This document shows, in pieces, positions 4,421-45,258 of a stretch of DNA of 64,000 nt. A program made the translations under genes and the position numbers. Within the stretch, counting starts at the first letter, position 1. Each line of letters starts with the position of its first letter. The notes under the pieces were generated by a model that did not search any database, was not told where the DNA came from, and saw only the letters and a program-made list of their open reading frames with translations. This DNA is from a phage. Location: the sequence record PZ445517.1, one strand, 5' to 3'.

Positions 4421-4438
4421 AAAGGGCCGAAGCCCTTT
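4421..4438 (-). terminator. UUCG-tetraloop hairpin (GGGC-UUCG-GCCC) after a-gt
   Basis: plus aaagggccgaagcccttt immediately after the a-gt stop; A/U flanks. Confidence 0.45.
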
Positions 4439-5639
4439 ATTTTGTAATAATGTCAAACTGTTCTTTAAAGCAGAAGCTTGAATCTTGATGCTGATACAAA
4501 AATTCATATGCTTTTTCTCGCTCACGGTCATAAAGAGCTCGGTCAGATGACAGTTCTTTAATACGTTCAAATGTTGATTCCATATCATTTTCATCAAACC
4601 AAATGATACCGCTATCATGCGAGGTCAAAGGAGTATTATCAACACGGAATTTTAAATTTTCGCCAGTAGATTTCCAAAATACCGGAATTGTTCCACATGC
4701 ACCAAGCTCGAGATGAGTATATTCTAAAGAACGTTGTAGATATTTTTTGTCCAACTTACTCAGCTGATAACCAAATCCGGATTTACTCATGCGTTCAAGC
4801 ATTTCGCTATTTACATAACGGTCAAGAATTTGCGTTGGCAAATTAGGAGCAATTTTAATTTGGTCTACTTGATGAAGACGATAATACTCGTATGGAATTC
4901 CTTTTTCTTTAATAGGAATGAACGCTGGAGAACGTTCCAGACCTTCCATAATAGTACTTAGTCCTGCAGGTTTAAGATGTTTTTCGTGAAAATCAAACAT
5001 CTGATAAAAACCTTTCCATGTAGTCGTACGACCAATCCAACGGTTGATATTCATGTTAATTTCAGAAACATCTTTCCAGTAGGTTGACCGAACCTTCGCA
5101 ATATCCATAGGAGGCTGAAAGTTATATACTGTCGGTGCTTCTTCAATATCATCAAACAGAGAAACTGTTTCTGGATACCATTCTTTCATCAGAACTTTAT
5201 TAAAATCGCCATTATCAGAATGACTAAAAATAACATCAGCTCGACGAACAGTTTCTTCTAATCCCAAATTTCGGCGCAAAGAAAGAGAAGAATGGTCATG
5301 TTGATAAACTACAACACGAACAGAAGGTTTAATGTTATCAATAATTTTTTTATAGTTATTAATAGTGTCTTCTTCAACCGAAGTAGCAGGAACTGAATTG
5401 ATAATTAGAATATCACAATCATTTACCAGCTTAAGTGTTTTATCATATTCTTTTGCCAATAAAACCGGAATTGAAAATGATTTATAATCATGCGCGCAAT
5501 TACGAGTAAATGATTTATCTTTAGCATAAACCAAAGTTACTTCATGACCATTTTTAATAAACCAATCACGTTGCTCAAGAGAAAATTTAGTTACACCACA
5601 ACCTTCAAGACCTCGAGCCATAAAAATACATACTTTCAT
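4437..5639 (-). CDS. a-gt: DNA alpha-glucosyltransferase
   Basis: 400 aa, matches my recall of T4 AGT (FMARGLEGCGVTKFSLEQRDWF...); ATG verified. Confidence 0.92.
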   Translation of the reverse strand: MKVCIFMARGLEGCGVTKFSLEQRDWFIKNGHEVTLVYAKDKSFTRNCAHDYKSFSIPVLLAKEYDKTLKLVNDCDILIINSVPATSVEEDTINNYKKIIDNIKPSVRVVVYQHDHSSLSLRRNLGLEETVRRADVIFSHSDNGDFNKVLMKEWYPETVSLFDDIEEAPTVYNFQPPMDIAKVRSTYWKDVSEINMNINRWIGRTTTWKGFYQMFDFHEKHLKPAGLSTIMEGLERSPAFIPIKEKGIPYEYYRLHQVDQIKIAPNLPTQILDRYVNSEMLERMSKSGFGYQLSKLDKKYLQRSLEYTHLELGACGTIPVFWKSTGENLKFRVDNTPLTSHDSGIIWFDENDMESTFERIKELSSDRALYDREREKAYEFLYQHQDSSFCFKEQFDIITK

Positions 5640-19640: not shown

Positions 19641-19694
19641 ATTTTCCTCACTCAATTTCAATTTTACTAAATACGCAGAATATGATGGAAAAGA

Positions 19695-20057
19695 CTATAT
19701 AAGCACCACACACACAGATTGAACTAATACCATTCCAAAGAACCAAACAATATTATCAAACAATGTCTGTTTTACGTCGAAAGGACGTAAACTTACAGTA
19801 ATATTATCGCCTTTTTCTATTGATGAATACATCTCTGGGGAAATATATTCGCTAAATCTATAACCGTCATTGAGTTCATATACAGCAATAAACGATAAAC
19901 TAGATCCCTTTCCTTGAGTTCCTGTAAGGGTATTAACTACAGTAACATCATAATCTTTATAATGCATATAATCATTAATTGCGTAATAACCATATGCAAT
20001 TACTATACATAAACAACATATCAATAAATTCAATCTTTTAATTATCAACTGTTTCAT
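19695..20057 (-). CDS. membrane-anchored or secreted protein (120 aa)
   Basis: N-terminal hydrophobic segment LICCLCIVIAYGYYAI, second at C-terminus. Confidence 0.5.
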   Translation of the reverse strand: MKQLIIKRLNLLICCLCIVIAYGYYAINDYMHYKDYDVTVVNTLTGTQGKGSSLSFIAVYELNDGYRFSEYISPEMYSSIEKGDNITVSLRPFDVKQTLFDNIVWFFGMVLVQSVCVVLI

Positions 20058-35749: not shown

Positions 35750-36342
35750 TTATTTCAGAGAATTAATATATTCCTGAACATCGGCAGAGGTAGTTTCAAC
35801 CCCAGAAATATTACCATTAAAGGTTTCAACTCGAGCAAGAGTATCTTCAATATCAACCTTAGTCAGTGCTGCAATTTCAACTACATCATCAGCAGTACTA
35901 ATTCCAAGTGCATTCGCTGCACGAGTTTCACGGATATATTCCAATTTAACTGCAAGTTCTTGGCGAGCATCATCTAACTCAACTACTTTCTTGGCGATTT
36001 CAATTCGCATTTCAGCATAACCATCAGCTTTAGTAGTCAACTGATCAGCTGTTCGACGATATAGTAAACCAAGTTTAGCATGCATTGTTACATCTTGACC
36101 TTCAGAAAGAAGCTTGCGAATTTCACGCTCTTTTGATTCGGCCTGCTTATTCTTTTCGACAATAAGTTCACGAATACGCTTTTCTTCGTTAATAGATTTA
36201 ACGGAAGCAGTTTTTAGGTCTTTAATCTTATCAAGTAGTTTTGCTGCTGCAGCAGTATACTGTTCTTCAACAGATAGATTTTAGCCATAGCAGAACCAAG
36301 TTTAGTGCGAATAAACTCAACAATTTTCTTCAGTGTGTTCAT
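35750..36342 (-). pseudogene. coiled-coil protein gene split by a frameshift
   Basis: ATG at 36340-36342 with AAGGA SD opens a 42-codon frame ending 36214; an overlapping frame is protein-like from 36280 but has no start codon until ATG at 36085; shift lies within 36217-36280. Confidence 0.45.
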
Positions 36343-36934: not shown

Positions 36935-36970
36935 TTGTATAGTACCATGGAAGAATAGGGATGTAAACAG
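36935..36970 (-). promoter_or_regulatory. T4-type early promoter
   Basis: minus strand GTTTACA - 17 nt - TACTAT. Confidence 0.55.
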
Positions 36971-37102
36971 TTTTGTGAAAAATTTTTTAAAAAGTTTTGG
37001 GGAATTCTAGGGCAGGGAGGGCAATTAAAGGATAGGATAATATATTATAAAGGATAGAAACTAAATGATGCCTAGAGAGGCCCGGAAAGGCCTAAATACC
37101 AA

Positions 37103-37130
37103 AAAGCCCCGACCAAAAGGTTGGGGCTAA
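37103..37130 (-). terminator. intrinsic terminator-like hairpin
   Basis: minus-strand GCCCCAACC-UUUU-GGUCGGGGC followed by UUUUUGG, just after the stop at 37136. Confidence 0.5.
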
Positions 37131-37135
37131 GAATG

Positions 37136-37610
37136 TTATTTGATTTGTTTAGCAGACCAAATGCGGTCTTTAATAATTTTTTGGATGTCTTCAACATACT
37201 CAAGAGAGTGAGCATGTGGGTTATCTTTGAAACTATAAGCACGAGCTAGCTTTTGGCCTTCAGTTTTGATTACTAAAAGCTCTTTAAGGATAGCTTCATA
37301 TTTGGAGATAATTCCTTTAACAATATTTTTTTTCTTGCGTAGCTTTAGGATCTGCTTTAGGAGCAGGTTTACCTGAAGCCTTTGCAAAAGCAGCGCCAGT
37401 AGCAACTAAACTTTTCCAGGCCATACTAACAGCATTCCCCGTAAATCCTTCTGCTTTCATATCACGAGCAAATTGGAATCGTGATTCATCGGAAGCATCT
37501 TTATAGGAATATTTACCCGCGGCAATGGCAGCTTTTGCAACAGCTTGAATTTCAGTGCTAGATGCTTCATTTAACACCGCTTCATTTAAAAATTGAGCAT
37601 ATGATTTCAT
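37136..37610 (-). CDS. CTS-bearing internal-protein-like gene split by a frameshift at an A8 run
   Basis: ATG ORF 37317-37610 starts MKSYAQFLNEA; continuing frame 37136-37405 has no ATG and begins at TTG; the frames switch at the A8 run 37326-37333. Confidence 0.5.
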
Positions 37611-37658
37611 CTTATTTCCTGTTTTAATTCGTGGTTTTAATATACTTATTTATACTAA

Positions 37659-37686
37659 AAAGCCCCAACCTTTCGGCTGGGGCTAA
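37659..37686 (-). terminator. GNRA-loop hairpin, sequence-related to the hairpin at 37103-37130
   Basis: minus-strand GCCCCAGCC-GAAA-GGUUGGGGC; shares the agcccca...ggggct arms with the downstream hairpin. Confidence 0.4.
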
Positions 37687-37734
37687 GCCTTGCGGCAACC
37701 TTGTCGGGGTTCCACCTGCTAAGGCAAGTGTTTG

Positions 37735-37827
37735 TACGAAACGCCGGGATTCGAACCCGGTTATTAAGCAGTTGACGCTACTCAATATTTTTAAAAGGCC
37801 ATATCTCGACCATATCCGAACGTTCCG
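37735..37827 (-). ncRNA. tRNA-like element (possible stable RNA or degenerate tRNA)
   Basis: canonical T-arm CCGGG-TTCGAAT-CCCGG and a 7-bp acceptor pairing (CGGAACG/CGTTTCG with one G-U), but ~93 nt long with no canonical anticodon arm. Confidence 0.35.
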
Positions 37828-38000
37828 TCAAAAACGCTACTCGGCTTATGGCAAAGATATTTCCTCGAATCGATAATTCGGTGCGCCGTTTCTGCTGTGA
37901 TATAAGGGGGCATTAGCAGATCGTAAAGATTTGTTAATGCCAGTCCTTAAACAGGGAACATCAGTCCGACGACTTGCCGGTAGCGACCCGGCTTCTTGTC

Positions 38001-38339: not shown

Positions 38340-38822
38340 TTATTTTATGTAATATTTATTTAAAAACTTTCTAGCTTGAGTATGGCTAACATTTATAGCG
38401 TTTGCATAATTTTTAATAAAACCTCGTTCATCCATATTAAAATTTTCTAATATTTTTAATCGTCTAATTATCTCATCTTGGCTTAAGGTACTTGCATTAT
38501 TTTTAGAAATTTTTTCTAAAGACTGCACTGAGTGTTTTCGACCATTAAAATTAAAATTTTTAGGTTTTGGAGGAAATCTATCATTTAGTCTCGCATCTTT
38601 TGTATTTTGATTATTAGTTGCGCAATATATGTTATTTAATGAGTATGGTCCTTTATCACCAAAACGACACATACAGTATTCATGACCCTTTCTTCCACGC
38701 TTATCATAATTTCCTGTTGATTTCCACCAATTTAACCACTCATCAAAAGTTAAATTCCATTCAATGTTTCTACGTATAGCAGAATTCCGCTGAGAAATAT
38801 ATTTTGCATAATCTTCTTTCAT
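38340..38822 (-). CDS. hypothetical protein between the two tRNA subclusters, possible DNA-binding or endonuclease-like
   Basis: ATG at 38820-38822; Cys/His-containing N-terminal half (GHEYCMCRFGDKG) and helix-turn-helix-like C-terminus; no clear HNH or GIY-YIG signature. Confidence 0.5.
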   Translation of the reverse strand: MKEDYAKYISQRNSAIRRNIEWNLTFDEWLNWWKSTGNYDKRGRKGHEYCMCRFGDKGPYSLNNIYCATNNQNTKDARLNDRFPPKPKNFNFNGRKHSVQSLEKISKNNASTLSQDEIIRRLKILENFNMDERGFIKNYANAINVSHTQARKFLNKYYIK

Positions 38823-38869
38823 CACAAATTTCTCTACTTATTACATGCACTAAGCTAAATCAGCAAAAC

Positions 38870-39217: not shown

Positions 39218-39826
39218 TTATTTATTACGTGAAAAAGATTGTTCTATCAATTCTGGACACTTTCGTTCTATCCATTTTCTAGCTTTTTGTGGGCTTATAC
39301 CTATTATTTTAGCAGCTTTACTAACCCATCCAAATTTAGAATAATCGATTTTAACTAATTCTTCGTAAATTTCATCAGTTAAAATCTTTTCATTAATATT
39401 TACCAGTAAATGATATAATTTATTATCATTAGCAATTTTAATGAATCTTTTATAGTTTCCGCCTTTACTTAAACCTAATGAAGTAATTGCAGATGATATA
39501 GTAGCCGAATTTAATAATGCGTTTAAAATTTCTTCATCACTAACATTATAACGCTTTTTATTATTTTTAATATTTTTACCAGCAAAAGTATCAGTTTGCG
39601 AATGGCAATTTGGACATAATAATCTTAAATTTGATTTAAGATGATTTTTATTATTTCCATCAATATGGTCTAATTGCAGAACAATATGCTTATTTTGCCA
39701 TTTTGAAATTTTACAAATTGCACACTCATATGGAAAAATATTTTCTTTTATTATTTTGTCTTTCAGCTTTCCTGTACTAAAATTTGGATGTTTTCCTTCA
39801 AAAATTTCAGCTAATTTAGTATCCAT
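39218..39826 (-). CDS. HNH homing endonuclease
   Basis: LQLDHIDGNNKNHLKSNLRLLCPNCHSQTD HNH motif plus CAIC zinc pair; track start is TTG, trimmed to ATG (MDTKLAEIF); abuts tRNA-Leu. Confidence 0.8.
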   Translation of the reverse strand: MDTKLAEIFEGKHPNFSTGKLKDKIIKENIFPYECAICKISKWQNKHIVLQLDHIDGNNKNHLKSNLRLLCPNCHSQTDTFAGKNIKNNKKRYNVSDEEILNALLNSATISSAITSLGLSKGGNYKRFIKIANDNKLYHLLVNINEKILTDEIYEELVKIDYSKFGWVSKAAKIIGISPQKARKWIERKCPELIEQSFSRNK

Positions 39827-39936
39827 AATATAATTCCCAATTATTAACAAAGGCTCTCAAACAAGAACCCTTGATGATAGAGGGTATTAATCAGTGCGGT
39901 ATGAGTTAATAATAACAAATAATTCTTAAAGCATAT

Positions 39937-40884: not shown

Positions 40885-41109
40885 TTATTCAACACCAGCG
40901 GCTTTCAAAAGTTTTTTAAGATTGGCAACACCTTGAGCAGAAAATGTGACCTTGCCACCTTTTTCACTGATAGAACCAACCAATTTAGCAAGTTTATCAT
41001 TAGGAATTTTTTTAAAATCAGCCAATGTTCCATCAAAGGTTTTTGAAACAAAAGGCAGTTCATCTTCATGTCTTTTAGCTTCTGCAATAAATTCTTGATA
41101 TGTTTTCAT
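40885..41109 (-). CDS. ipI: internal head protein IPI-like (CTS-bearing)
   Basis: ATG at 41107-41109 gives MKTYQEFIAEAKRH...; longer track ORF is upstream read-through. Confidence 0.7.
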   Translation of the reverse strand: MKTYQEFIAEAKRHEDELPFVSKTFDGTLADFKKIPNDKLAKLVGSISEKGGKVTFSAQGVANLKKLLKAAGVE

Positions 41110-43981: not shown

Positions 43982-44806
43982 TTAGATATTTGACCAGACT
44001 TTGTTTGCAGAGAAACGTTTTCCTTTTGAAACGAACTGCTGAAGTGGCATTAACACAACGTTCGCCCAGTCTTTTGGGGCGATTTCAACTAGGCTACCCA
44101 TGATATTACCGGGTATATATGCCTTAATCATTTGGTCTGCACCCCTAAATCCTTTCACTTGACTCCAATCAATTTTCAATTTCGTTTTATTAGTAATAGT
44201 AGGTGTATTTGCATATTGCTTTAAAAGCTCTTCTAGAAATTGCTGACGAGCTTTAGGTGGAATATAGTGCAAGTTCAATCCGTACATTAAATTGTGTTTA
44301 CCTAAACCAAGGTAAATTATCAAAGGAAATTTATCCCAATAAGGAAGAGTTTCCTTGTGTTTAGCATCATAAGCAAAAGCATATATTCGTCCCGGCTGCG
44401 GGCGAACAACTTTATGTCCTTTTACTTGCTTAATAGTTTCAGCAAACCACTTTCTGGTTTTATTATTAATTGCTGCGCCTTCATTACGAATTTTATCACG
44501 CAATGTTTGTCTGAATGAATTTATCATAAGCAGTTGTCTTTCTTGCTTATTGAGTTTATTCATTGGTTTTGATTCAAGCTTTTGAATCTTTTCGGCTGTT
44601 TTAATTCCTGAAGCATATTTTGACATTGCCGAAGTAAACGTAGAGTATTTGATTCCTCTTTCTTCAGCAAATTGCTTTCCTGTCATTCCTTTTGCTTTGG
44701 CCTTTTTGTATTCAAGACCTATCTGAATCCATTTCTTTTCGTTTAATGATTGCTTAACCTTTGGAACTTGGGGAGTGCTTTCATTAATTATTTGAAAAAT
44801 AGCCAT
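43982..44806 (-). CDS. 2: gp2 DNA end-protector protein
   Basis: 274 aa; ATG overlaps gene 4 stop (TAATG). Confidence 0.9.
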
Positions 44807-45258
44807 TATGCCCCCTTAAAGCCAAGAGCTCGTAATCCATCTTCTGTTAGAATTCTAAATTTTATTCCACGCTTTTCAGCTAAAGATTGCGCTGCTTTCC
44901 ATTTGTCGGTATTAACAGAATATGTATAAATTTCATTCATAAATCTTTTCTTCGCTGCGGTTGTTAGATGTGCTGGTTTAACCGGCGGTTGTGTTTCTTT
45001 TTTAGGTTTTATTTCAATAAAAAATTCTTGTCCAGAAGAATCTTTCATCCAAATATCCATGAAGTATCTACGTTTTTTCCCTTCTGCATTACAAAAATAA
45101 GGAATTACTGCTGTTTCACTACCCCATGCAATAATTTCTGGATTTTTATCTAACCATTCAAAAAAGAATTTTTCCCAATTTGATCTATACGTAATTTTTT
45201 TAGGGTCACCTCTATATTTTGATATATTTTTAGGAACCCATTTTCCAGAATATGCCAT
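44806..45258 (-). CDS. 4: gp4 head completion protein
   Basis: 150 aa; ATG verified with AAGGAG SD. Confidence 0.9.

What the first reader, a model, noticed from the sequence alone, without database searches (positions are those of the whole stretch)
37136..37610. A further CTS-type gene (MKSYAQFLNEA) is split across two frames at an A8 homopolymer run
The ATG ORF 37317-37610 starts with a CTS-like MKSYAQFLNEAVLNEA and stops two codons after an A8 run (minus-strand 37326-37333). The overlapping frame 37136-37405 has no ATG at all and continues as protein-like sequence (NIVKGIISKYEAILKELL...). A 1-nt shift in the A8 run would fuse them into about 158 aa. This could be a sequencing error, a slippage-prone phase-variable site, or programmed frameshifting. 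The gene is bracketed by two sequence-related hairpins (37103-37130 and 37659-37686), suggesting a mobile regulatory cassette.
Basis: seen in the sequence. Interest (0 to 1): 0.6.

Follow-up and report, generated by a model that had tools for sequence, protein, structure and literature searches.

The report
Slippage frameshift in phage head-protein gene
A small accessory gene of a T4-like phage, for a protein that is probably packed into the head and injected with the DNA, is broken by one extra A in a run of A's; the break is a real allele found in nature, it recurs in many related phages, and it is a mutation hot spot, not programmed recoding.

Summary
On the minus strand, ATG 37610 opens a 97-codon ORF with a capsid-targeting-like N-terminus (MKSYAQFLNEA). 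It crosses an A8 run (37326-37333) and stops two codons later. A second frame continues to 37136 with no start codon.

Removing one A gives a 157-aa protein that matches phrog_2280 end to end. About 470 related Tequatrovirus genomes carry the gene. Nearly all have 7 bases there (A7 or AGAAAAA) and a single ORF.

The extra A is not a sequencing error. Metagenome contigs from another project are 100% identical to the window, A8 included. The same 475-nt allele also sits in a different phage backbone in a sewage metagenome.

The tract is a recurrent indel site: at least 13 records have A8 and 3 have A6, on diverged alleles. It is the longest homopolymer in the 64-kb window.

Programmed frameshifting is not supported. 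The out-of-frame state is the minority. Both +1 and -1 variants occur. The window needs a +1 shift, whereas the A_AAA_AAA heptamer would shift -1 into the wrong frame. No stimulatory RNA structure follows the run.

Best reading: replication slippage at an A7 hot spot. This matches the phage "contingency loci" described for T2/T4 in 2025.

The hairpin-bracketed cassette is real. T4 has one hairpin and no gene at this site.

The parts
37657..37684 (-). Upstream terminator-type hairpin (AGCCCCAGCCGAAAGGTTGGGGCTTTTT). It ends the tRNA/RNA C-D transcription unit and forms the left boundary of the cassette.
   Evidence: Pattern search found only 2 matches in the window against 0 expected. The terminator scan picks it up. 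It folds at -20.6 kcal/mol, z -3.5. T4 has the homologous single hairpin after rnaC.
37647..37654 (-). TATAAATA, the T4 late-promoter consensus. It lies 3 nt after the hairpin's T-run and 37 nt before the ATG.
   Evidence: The motif is not enriched in the window (12 found, 11.2 expected). Its position is suggestive, but function is inferred.
37615..37620 (-). Shine-Dalgarno-like AGGAAA, ending 4 nt before the ATG.
   Evidence: Read from the sequence; coordinates.
37317..37610 (-). Upstream ORF as it stands: 97 aa plus stop. It comprises the capsid-targeting-like leader (aa 1-10/15), the helical N-domain, the Lys/Pro/Ala linker, and then KKYC*.
   Evidence: The exact 97-aa product is encoded on 16 public contigs.
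37566..37610 (-). Capsid-targeting-sequence-like leader MKSYAQFLNE|AVLNE|A, with two (L/I)xE|A motifs of the type cut by the T4 prohead protease.
   Evidence: It shares the motif M-K-[ST]-Y-x-x-F-[IL]-x-E-A with three other ORFs in the window, including homologues of Ip8 and IPIII. The AF2 model has residues 1-15 at pLDDT < 50. Cleavage and packaging are inferred.
37326..37333 (-). A8 homopolymer and site of the frameshift. Most relatives have A7 or AGAAAAA here, encoding Glu-Lys-Asn.
   Evidence: It is the only run of 8 in the 64-kb window, and the only one of 59 aligned long runs that differs in length from R5505.
37136..37327 (-). Downstream frame (+1): codons for N94-K157 plus stop. This is the C-terminal helical hairpin domain. 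It has no start codon of its own.
   Evidence: In the AF2 model the helices are 88-125 and 132-154. The frame is intact in all 14 A8 alleles and the 1 A6 allele examined.
37101..37128 (-). Downstream terminator-type hairpin (AGCCCCAACCTTTTGGTCGGGGCTTTTT). It is a diverged copy of the upstream one and forms the right boundary of the cassette.
   Evidence: -16.2 kcal/mol, z -3.6. The sequence after it is homologous to what follows T4's single hairpin.

Best explanation
The gene is an accessory two-domain internal head protein of the T4 type. It has an N-terminal capsid-targeting leader and sits in a late-promoter cassette bounded by hairpins, between the tRNA/RNA C-D cluster and e.8.

Its normal form is one 157-codon ORF. 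That ORF contains an A7 tract (GAA AAA AAT) at the start of the C-terminal domain. In this phage lineage, DNA-polymerase slippage added one A to give A8. Translation therefore stops two codons later.

The product is a 97-aa precursor that keeps the targeting leader and the N-domain but lacks the 64-residue C-terminal helical hairpin.

The tract is a mutational hot spot of the simple-sequence-repeat (contingency-locus) type. +1 and -1 variants arise again and again on different alleles, circulate in natural populations, and can presumably revert.

Shown here: the anatomy, the ancestral in-frame state, that the A8 allele is real, and recurrence in both directions.

Inferred: slippage as the mechanism, packaging and processing of the protein, and reversibility.
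For: 1. The fused ORF is the family norm. It matches phrog_2280 over 1-157 of the protein (profile positions 1-172 of 178) with E = 3e-60. Single 474-nt CDSs are annotated in R5505, UFV-AREG1 and AV122. The large homologue clusters are 154-157 aa long.

2. Seven bases at the tract is the common state. All IMG/VR loci and all 6 JGI metagenome contigs have 7. In about 470 INPHARED records only about 16 deviate.

3. The A8 allele is real. Contigs L033, L036, L038, L039 and L040 come from metagenome samples of one other sequencing project. They are 100% identical to the window over 0.7-4.3 kb, including A8. The identical 475-nt A8 gene also lies in a backbone that is about 96% identical, in a sewage metagenome.

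4. The indel recurs and goes both ways. A8 was confirmed by reading the locus DNA in teqhal, SF2-1, PYps55T, EC128, AUBRB02, bov10K1, FJ1, ph0021, PsgM02F, G28 and OP172786. A6 was read directly in F26; for SfPhi01 and 235Ecol030PP it rests on exact 32-nt matches to an A6 query. More diverged truncated alleles are P0008 and P0009. The window's nearest alleles are in-frame ones: R5505 at 9 differences and UFV-AREG1 at 10.

5. It is the longest homopolymer in the window. The other 58 aligned long runs keep their length relative to R5505.

6. The downstream frame is intact in every shifted allele examined. This fits recent or reversible events.

7. Published work shows that A-runs of at least 6 in T2/T4/T6 are hypermutable and reversible (bioRxiv 10.1101/2025.10.21.683753). 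The window's agt homologue carries the same tract position as the validated T2 agt locus.
Against: - No read-level data and no switching rates were available, so hypermutability and reversibility at this particular tract are inferred.
- The census gives lower bounds from exact-flank BLAST queries. It contains some RefSeq/GenBank duplicates.
- Some A8 alleles cluster together (teqhal/EC128/PYps55T; bov10K1/FJ1; ph0021/PsgM02F/SF2-1). The number of independent events is therefore smaller than the number of records.
- The downstream frame stays intact, and its variation among A8 alleles is mostly synonymous. This could also mean that the frame is still expressed.
- A few of the other shifted records could be assembly errors.
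Confidence: 0.8

Rival explanations
1. Adaptive phase variation (a true contingency locus). On this reading the tract is maintained because switching pays off. The injected protein would toggle between full-length and N-domain-only forms as a bet-hedge against host defences that either are blocked by, or sense, its C-terminal domain.
For: - ON and OFF alleles coexist in natural samples.
- Shifted alleles never show secondary decay of the downstream frame.
- The tract sits exactly at the domain boundary.
- Three of the four runs of 7 or more in the window lie in host-interaction accessory genes: agt, this gene and ip8.
- There is an experimental precedent in T2 agt and T4 rIIA (bioRxiv 10.1101/2025.10.21.683753).
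- Internal proteins are known anti-restriction effectors (PMC3012670).
Against: - The tract is not protected by selection. Three of the 8 in-frame alleles compared carry the synonymous interruption AGAAAAA.
- A-rich codon usage and a Lys-rich linker explain the run without any selection.
- No function or phenotype is known for this protein.
- The roughly 3% OFF frequency also fits mutation-selection balance in a nearly neutral gene.
Confidence: 0.15
2. Recoding rescue. In the A8 allele, a +1 ribosomal shift by tRNA-Lys on the A run, or RNA-polymerase slippage that deletes one A or adds two, would produce useful amounts of the full-length protein beside the 97-aa product. This would be programmed or 'pseudo-pseudogene' expression.
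For: - A8 is close to the length at which bacterial RNA polymerase slips. The threshold is about 9, with 8 productive in some organisms (PMC1088944).
- A +1 shift of tRNA-Lys from AAA to AAA would regenerate exactly the wild-type peptide QEKNIV (sequence).
- The downstream frame is intact, and its variation among A8 alleles is mostly synonymous.
Against: - The frameshifted arrangement is not conserved: about 96% of homologues are in frame, and A6 variants also occur. By the criterion of PMC1088944 this indicates replication slippage, not purposeful slippage.
- The perfect heptamer A_AAA_AAA favours a -1 shift, which leads to a 17-codon dead end.
- There is no stop or hungry codon at the A site, and no upstream SD-like or downstream structural stimulator (z = -1.0 and -1.8).
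- E. coli RNA polymerase mainly inserts one base at A/T runs and rarely deletes (PMC5574713). A single insertion would give A9, which is the wrong frame.
Confidence: 0.04
3. Sequencing or assembly artefact. The true genome would have A7, and the record miscounts a homopolymer.
For: - Homopolymers are the classic miscount site.
- The same record has a second single-base homopolymer frameshift 1 kb away, in the e.6 homologue (A4 versus A5). That change is absent from an otherwise identical metagenome contig.
Against: - Five contigs from metagenome samples of another sequencing project, plus a sewage-metagenome scaffold and a contig from the matching run, reproduce A8 on identical sequence.
- 58 of 59 other long runs agree with R5505.
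- No essential gene in the 64 kb is frameshifted.
Confidence: 0.01

Closest known systems
T4-type internal head proteins with a capsid targeting sequence (IPI, IPII, IPIII; Ip4-Ip12 of other T-even phages)
   Same: - It has the N-terminal motif MK(T/S)YxxF(I/L)xE|A, shared with the window's IPIII-like, Ip8 and a third CTS ORF.
- It is small, non-conserved and sits in a hyperplastic region.
- A late-promoter motif lies upstream.
- The literature describes these proteins as a highly diverse set that shares only the CTS (PMC3012670, PMC4122927).
   Different: - The mature part (phrog_2280) has no detectable similarity to any characterised IP or to any solved structure.
- The gene lies between rnaC and e.8, a site that is empty in T4.
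- Databases annotate it only as a hypothetical protein.
- Packaging, cleavage and function are untested.
Phage contingency loci: A-run repeats in T2 agt and T4 rIIA (Gomez, Barrick and Waters 2025, bioRxiv 10.1101/2025.10.21.683753); classically the Benzer/Streisinger frameshift hot spots of T4
   Same: - It is a mononucleotide A tract inside an accessory gene of a T-even phage, with ±1 variants that truncate the protein.
- The window's agt homologue carries the tract at gene offset 289-295 (A7 here). This falls within bases 288-296, the position of the T2 agt tract that was validated experimentally.
   Different: - The evidence here is comparative: fixed alleles in isolates and metagenomes, not measured switching rates within a population.
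- No selective trade-off is known.
- The OFF state leaves a possibly functional N-domain and is not a clear null allele.
Programmed frameshifting and transcriptional slippage genes (dnaX, prfB, IS element orfAB, Thermus dnaX A9)
   Same: It has a slippery A run between two overlapping frames whose fusion gives a full-length protein.
   Different: - The out-of-frame layout is not conserved among homologues.
- The direction is wrong for the heptamer.
- The run is shorter than the usual 9.
- No stimulatory element is present.
PeSL mobile regulatory cassettes of T4-type phages (Arbiol et al. 2010, PMC2839356; Comeau et al. 2014, PMC4122927)
   Same: A gene-sized indel between close relatives is bounded by conserved stem-loop regulatory sequences. 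T4 has one hairpin and no gene; the window has hairpin, gene, hairpin.
   Different: - The boundaries are terminator hairpins.
- The internal promoter is late-type.
- The nearest early-type promoter match (36939-36967) lies about 130 nt beyond the downstream hairpin, not directly after it.

Membership tests
T4-type CTS internal head proteins | N-terminal capsid targeting sequence of about 10 residues (consensus MKTYQEFIAE) ending in (L/I)-x-Glu before the cleavage point | tested here: met
   MKSYAQFLNE|A, with a second VLNE|A. It shares the motif with three other ORFs in the window, which start MKTYQEFI(A/T)EA. One of these is Ip8 by DNA match.
T4-type CTS internal head proteins | Late expression, in time for prohead core assembly | tested here: inconclusive
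   TATAAATA lies 37 nt upstream of the ATG, directly after a terminator. The motif count in the window equals the chance expectation, and no transcript data are available.
T4-type CTS internal head proteins | Physical packaging in the head, cleavage by the prohead protease, and injection with the DNA | not testable with these tools
   This needs virion proteomics or N-terminal sequencing.
phrog_2280 (unknown function) | Full-length match to the family profile | tested here: met
   The A7-corrected protein matches with E = 3.1e-60, over residues 1-157 against profile positions 1-172 of 178.
Contingency locus (repeat-mediated phase variation) | Simple sequence repeat inside the coding region, such that ±1 changes switch the frame | tested here: met
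   The A7/A8 tract lies at codons 92-94.
Contingency locus (repeat-mediated phase variation) | Length polymorphism at exactly the repeat among otherwise closely related genomes, in both directions | tested here: met
   A6, A7 and A8 all occur on alleles that differ by 9-13 substitutions. At least 13 records have A8 and 3 have A6 among about 470.
Contingency locus (repeat-mediated phase variation) | Elevated and reversible switching rate, measured within a clonal population | not testable with these tools
   No reads or stocks were available. The rate is known for other T-even A-runs (bioRxiv 10.1101/2025.10.21.683753).
Contingency locus (repeat-mediated phase variation) | A fitness trade-off between the ON and OFF states | not testable with these tools
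   The protein's function is unknown.
Programmed ribosomal frameshifting | The two-frame arrangement is conserved among homologues | tested here: not met
   The large majority of homologues are single in-frame ORFs.
Programmed ribosomal frameshifting | A slippery site that shifts into the productive frame | tested here: not met
   A_AAA_AAA supports a -1 shift. The -1 frame ends after about 17 codons. The productive frame is +1.
Programmed ribosomal frameshifting | A stimulatory element (downstream hairpin or pseudoknot, upstream SD-like sequence, or an A-site stop or rare codon) | tested here: not met
   Folds of the run plus 36 nt and plus 105 nt of downstream sequence give z = -1.0 and -1.8. 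The nearest helix starts more than 20 nt away. The A-site codon is AAA.
Programmed transcriptional slippage | A run of A or T, usually 9 or more, whose length is conserved among homologues | tested here: not met
   The run is 8 here and 7 in most homologues, and is interrupted (AGAAAAA) in some. The criterion is from PMC1088944.
PeSL cassettes | A stem-loop directly followed by an early promoter | tested here: not met
   The upstream hairpin is followed by a late-type motif. The early-like promoter match at 36939-36967 lies about 130 nt after the downstream hairpin.
PeSL cassettes | Located at indel boundaries between closely related genomes | tested here: met
   T4 has a single hairpin that joins rnaC directly to the e.8 upstream region. 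The window has promoter, gene and a second hairpin copy inserted after it.

The most novel reading that the evidence does not exclude
The A7 tract at the domain boundary of this injected head protein may be a working genetic switch. Natural Tequatrovirus populations would keep a few percent of particles loaded with an N-domain-only version of the protein. This would act as bet-hedging against hosts whose defences are triggered by, or no longer inhibited by, the C-terminal helical domain. On this reading, long A tracts in agt, ip8 and this gene form a coordinated set of switchable anti-defence genes.
Probability: 0.15. Interest if true: 0.6.

Novelty: new member of a known kind. Interest (0 to 1): 0.35.

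Why it matters
The finding gives population-level evidence from natural samples, beyond laboratory stocks, that a homopolymer tract in a T-even accessory gene exists in both ON and OFF states. The OFF allele was found in isolates from at least six countries and in metagenomes.

This complements the 2025 laboratory demonstration of phage contingency loci. It also points to a specific uncharacterised internal-protein family (phrog_2280) as a candidate anti-defence effector whose two domains can be separated naturally.

In practice, it warns annotators that the 97-aa and 111-aa "hypothetical proteins" in many Tequatrovirus records are frameshift alleles of a single 157-aa gene.

Tried and rejected
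- **Shifted-frame peptide census.** I ran tblastn with a peptide that is contiguous only in A8 alleles, hoping to count them from the coverage statistic. It failed because low-complexity masking removed the Lys/Leu-rich upstream part; even the window's own record covered only 70%.
- I reran it with the window's own 97-aa ORF.
- **Small public samples.** IMG/VR gave only 7 usable loci and JGI metagenomes only 6, all with 7 bases at the tract. These are too few to estimate the OFF frequency.
- **Function from structure.** The AF2 model (pLDDT 73) searched against BFVD and the PDB returned only self-family hits. Pfam gave nothing above threshold.
- **Control tract in ip8.** Only about 19 records carry that gene, and none has A8 or A6, so the test had no power.
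- **Origin of T4_ev240.** A literature search found no paper on its isolation or sequencing platform. The supplementary tables of the contingency-locus preprint are not held.
- **Independent start for the downstream frame.** Considered and rejected: there is no ATG, GTG or TTG in that frame after the run.
- **Selection test on the downstream frame in A8 alleles.** It gave mostly synonymous differences, but it cannot separate variation that predates the frameshifts from continuing selection.

Full report
**Source and setting.** The window is identical to Escherichia phage T4_ev240 (LR597657.1), a Tequatrovirus. The flagged gene lies on the minus strand between the tRNA cluster with its RNA C/D-like region and the e.8 homologue.

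**The observation.**
- ATG 37610 opens a 97-codon ORF: MKSYAQFLNEAVLNEASS...KATQEKKYC*.
- The A8 run is at 37326-37333, and the stop follows two sense codons later.
- The frame that continues to 37136 (NIVKGIISKYEAILKELL...SAKQIK*) has no ATG, GTG or TTG after the run. It cannot be translated on its own.
- This frame is +1 relative to the upstream frame. Removing one A (A7), or a +1 shift, gives a 157-aa protein. A -1 shift, A6 or A9 gives a 17-codon dead end.

**The fused ORF is the normal gene.**
- The A7-corrected protein matches phrog_2280 from end to end, E = 3e-60.
- R5505, UFV-AREG1 and AV122 annotate a single 474-nt CDS at the same position.
- In alignment, the only indel is at the run: A7 or AGAAAAA in relatives against A8 here.
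- The protein search found clusters of 154-157 aa with 216, 38 and 45 members, plus small clusters of truncated forms.
- All usable IMG/VR loci and all six JGI metagenome contigs have 7 bases at the tract. This includes alleles with only 60-70% amino-acid identity.

**It is not a sequencing error.**
- The exact 97-aa product is encoded on 16 public contigs.
- Five contigs from metagenome samples of one other project (three ENA LIXU21 assemblies and two Logan assemblies of SRR1400xxxx runs) are 100% identical to the window over 709-4294 nt, A8 included.
- The 4294-nt contig differs from the window at a single position elsewhere.
- A 168.6-kb sewage-metagenome scaffold and a contig from run ERR2241744, which share the same backbone, carry the identical 475-nt A8 gene. 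Their flanks are only about 96% identical and their neighbouring genes differ.
- Within the window, 58 of 59 other long homopolymers have the same length as in R5505.
- No essential gene is frameshifted.

**The tract is a recurrent indel site.**
- Exact-flank BLAST queries against about 470 phage records that carry the gene found at least 13 with A8 and 3 with A6.
- I fetched eleven shifted loci. All annotate a 294-nt or 336-nt truncated CDS.
- They come from Germany, Denmark, Hungary, Portugal, Brazil and China.
- The alleles differ from one another by 8-30 or more substitutions. The window's nearest alleles are in-frame ones (R5505 9 differences, UFV-AREG1 10). An A8 allele (AUBRB02) is closest to an A6 allele (F26).
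- More diverged truncated forms also exist: P0008 ends in ...QEKKYC, and P0009 has the A6-type tail.
- Some A8 alleles cluster, so the number of events is smaller than the number of records. At least several independent events, in both directions, are still required.
- The A8 is the only run of 8 in 64 kb, and only three runs of 7 exist.

**Programmed recoding was tested and is not supported.**
- By the comparative criterion of Baranov et al. (PMC1088944), a purposeful slippage run keeps its length among homologues. A run whose length varies among orthologues indicates replication slippage. This tract varies.
- The heptamer A_AAA_AAA is in the right phase for a -1 shift, but that frame is unproductive.
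- There is no A-site stop or rare codon.
- Folding shows no significant structure after the run: z = -1.0 for the local 81 nt and -1.8 for 116 nt.
- E. coli RNA polymerase mostly inserts single bases at A/T runs and very rarely deletes them (PMC5574713). Transcriptional rescue of A8, which needs -1 or +2, should therefore be inefficient.
- A low level of rescue cannot be excluded. Every shifted allele keeps the downstream frame open. Differences among A8 alleles in that part are mostly synonymous, for example 3:0, 4:0, 4:1 and 8:1 in close pairs. That pattern is equally expected if the frameshifts are recent events on standing variation.

**What the protein is.**
- Four ORFs in the window begin with M-K-[ST]-Y-x-x-F-[IL]-x-E-A. 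They are an IPIII-like gene, a 157-aa neighbour of it, this gene, and a 74-aa gene at the ipI locus. The last one is Ip8 of RB15 by DNA match.
- The literature describes T-even internal proteins as a highly diverse set of injected anti-defence proteins that share only the capsid targeting sequence (PMC3012670, PMC4122927).
- The AF2 model (pLDDT 73) has a disordered leader (residues 1-15), a helical N-domain (18-75), a low-confidence Lys/Pro/Ala linker (76-87) and a C-terminal helical hairpin (88-154). The tract, at codons 92-94, sits at the start of the C-terminal domain.
- Distant homologues (177-178 aa, in Yersinia and Klebsiella phages) share the N-domain but have a different C-terminal part. 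This supports a two-module build.
- Fold and profile searches gave no functional lead.
- The truncated allele should still make a leader plus N-domain. That it is packaged is an inference.

**The cassette.**
- The two hairpins (37657-37684 and 37101-37128) match at 22 of 28 positions. They are unique in the window and stable.
- A TATAAATA motif follows the upstream hairpin, 37 nt before the ATG.
- T4 has a single homologous hairpin after rnaC. It is followed directly by the sequence that, in the window, follows the downstream hairpin. T4 has no gene there.
- The unit of late promoter, gene and hairpin copy is therefore an insertion or deletion bounded by hairpin repeats.
- This resembles PeSL-mediated shuffling (PMC2839356, PMC4122927). 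It lacks the defining arrangement of a stem-loop directly followed by an early promoter.

**Relation to known work.**
- Gomez, Barrick and Waters (bioRxiv 10.1101/2025.10.21.683753) showed that A-runs of at least 6 in T2, T4 and T6 are hypermutable. Mean mutant-read frequency was about 3e-4.
- They also showed that ±1 mutants in the agt and rIIA tracts revert 1,000 to 10,000 times more often than point mutants. They named such tracts phage contingency loci.
- The window's agt homologue carries an A7 at gene offset 289-295, the same position as their validated T2 tract.
- The present case is a further member of that kind, seen as fixed alleles in nature and not as within-stock variation.
- Whether the tract is kept for its switching, or is only a by-product of A-rich codons in a Lys-rich linker, is open. 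The synonymous interruption AGAAAAA occurs in three of the eight in-frame alleles compared, which argues against strong selection for the tract.

**Verdict.** The gene is a frameshift allele of a 157-aa CTS-type accessory protein, produced by slippage at a homopolymer hot spot. Sequencing error is refuted and programmed frameshifting is unsupported. The hairpin cassette is real. Interest is moderate to low: the case is a clear example of a recently described phenomenon, not a new mechanism.

Noticed in passing
window 36279-36282 (minus strand), ORFs 36214-36342 and 35750-36085: The e.6 homologue is 197 aa in R5505 and AV122. In the window it is split by a one-base loss in an A5 run, leaving A4. 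Residues 1-21 read in one frame and 22-197 in another. A metagenome contig (L033) that is otherwise 100% identical to the window over 4.3 kb has A5 and an intact gene. This second frameshift is therefore private to the T4_ev240 record: either a recent mutation or a genuine miscount.
   Followed up: yes
window 19707-19716, ORF about 19651-20057 (minus strand): A (CA)5 dinucleotide repeat has one unit more than in R5505. This changes the frame of the last ~20 codons of a 135-aa hypothetical protein. It is a third slippage-type difference in an accessory gene.
   Followed up: partly
window 5345-5351 (in ORF 4437-5639), 41007-41013 (in ORF 40885-41109), 45195-45201 (in ORF 44806-45258): The only other homopolymers of 7 or more in the 64 kb lie in three genes. 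One is the alpha-glucosyltransferase homologue, at gene offset 289-295, the position of the validated T2 agt contingency tract. One is the Ip8 internal-protein gene. One is the head-completion gene 4 homologue. So three of the four longest runs are in host-interaction accessory genes. About 19 records carry ip8, and none has A8 or A6.
   Followed up: partly
L032 (ENA MUNK18 sewage scaffold, 168.6 kb) and L037 (ERR2241744) compared with window 37136-37610: The 475-nt A8 gene is identical in a genome whose flanks are only about 96% identical and whose neighbouring genes differ. That backbone has a 216-aa GIY-YIG ORF and a 116-aa ORF upstream, and e.7-like and Y10B-like genes downstream. This suggests the cassette moves between backbones by recombination.
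   Followed up: partly
window 37101-37128 compared with T4 (L022, about 4830-4857): The downstream hairpin reads as the reverse complement of T4's hairpin. The stem asymmetry is swapped and the loop is TTTT instead of GAAA. Other relatives (teqhal, SF2-1, F26, UFV-AREG1) keep the T4 orientation. This may be a hairpin flip by template switching.
   Followed up: no
window 38340-38825 and 39218-39850 (minus strand): Two endonuclease-like ORFs are associated with the tRNA genes: a 161-aa ORF between tRNA-Ser and tRNA-Met, and a 210-aa HNH-type ORF just upstream of the first tRNA (Leu). The window's tRNA set (Leu, Gly, Pro, Ser, Met, Tyr, Asn, Arg) differs from those of T4 and R5505. The tRNA region is a mosaic shaped by homing elements.
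   Followed up: no
window about 37690-37990 (minus strand): This stretch is nearly identical to T4 rnaC/rnaD (species 1 and 2 RNAs). No Rfam family matches it; only the tRNAs were reported. Several spurious ORFs are called across it in some records.
   Followed up: no
proteins P0012, P0013, P0014: Chimeric database proteins join 25-60 residue pieces of this family to unrelated sequence. For example, P0014 has a different N-terminus (PF26894) fused to the last ~30 residues. They may reflect recombination within the gene or assembly chimeras.
   Followed up: no
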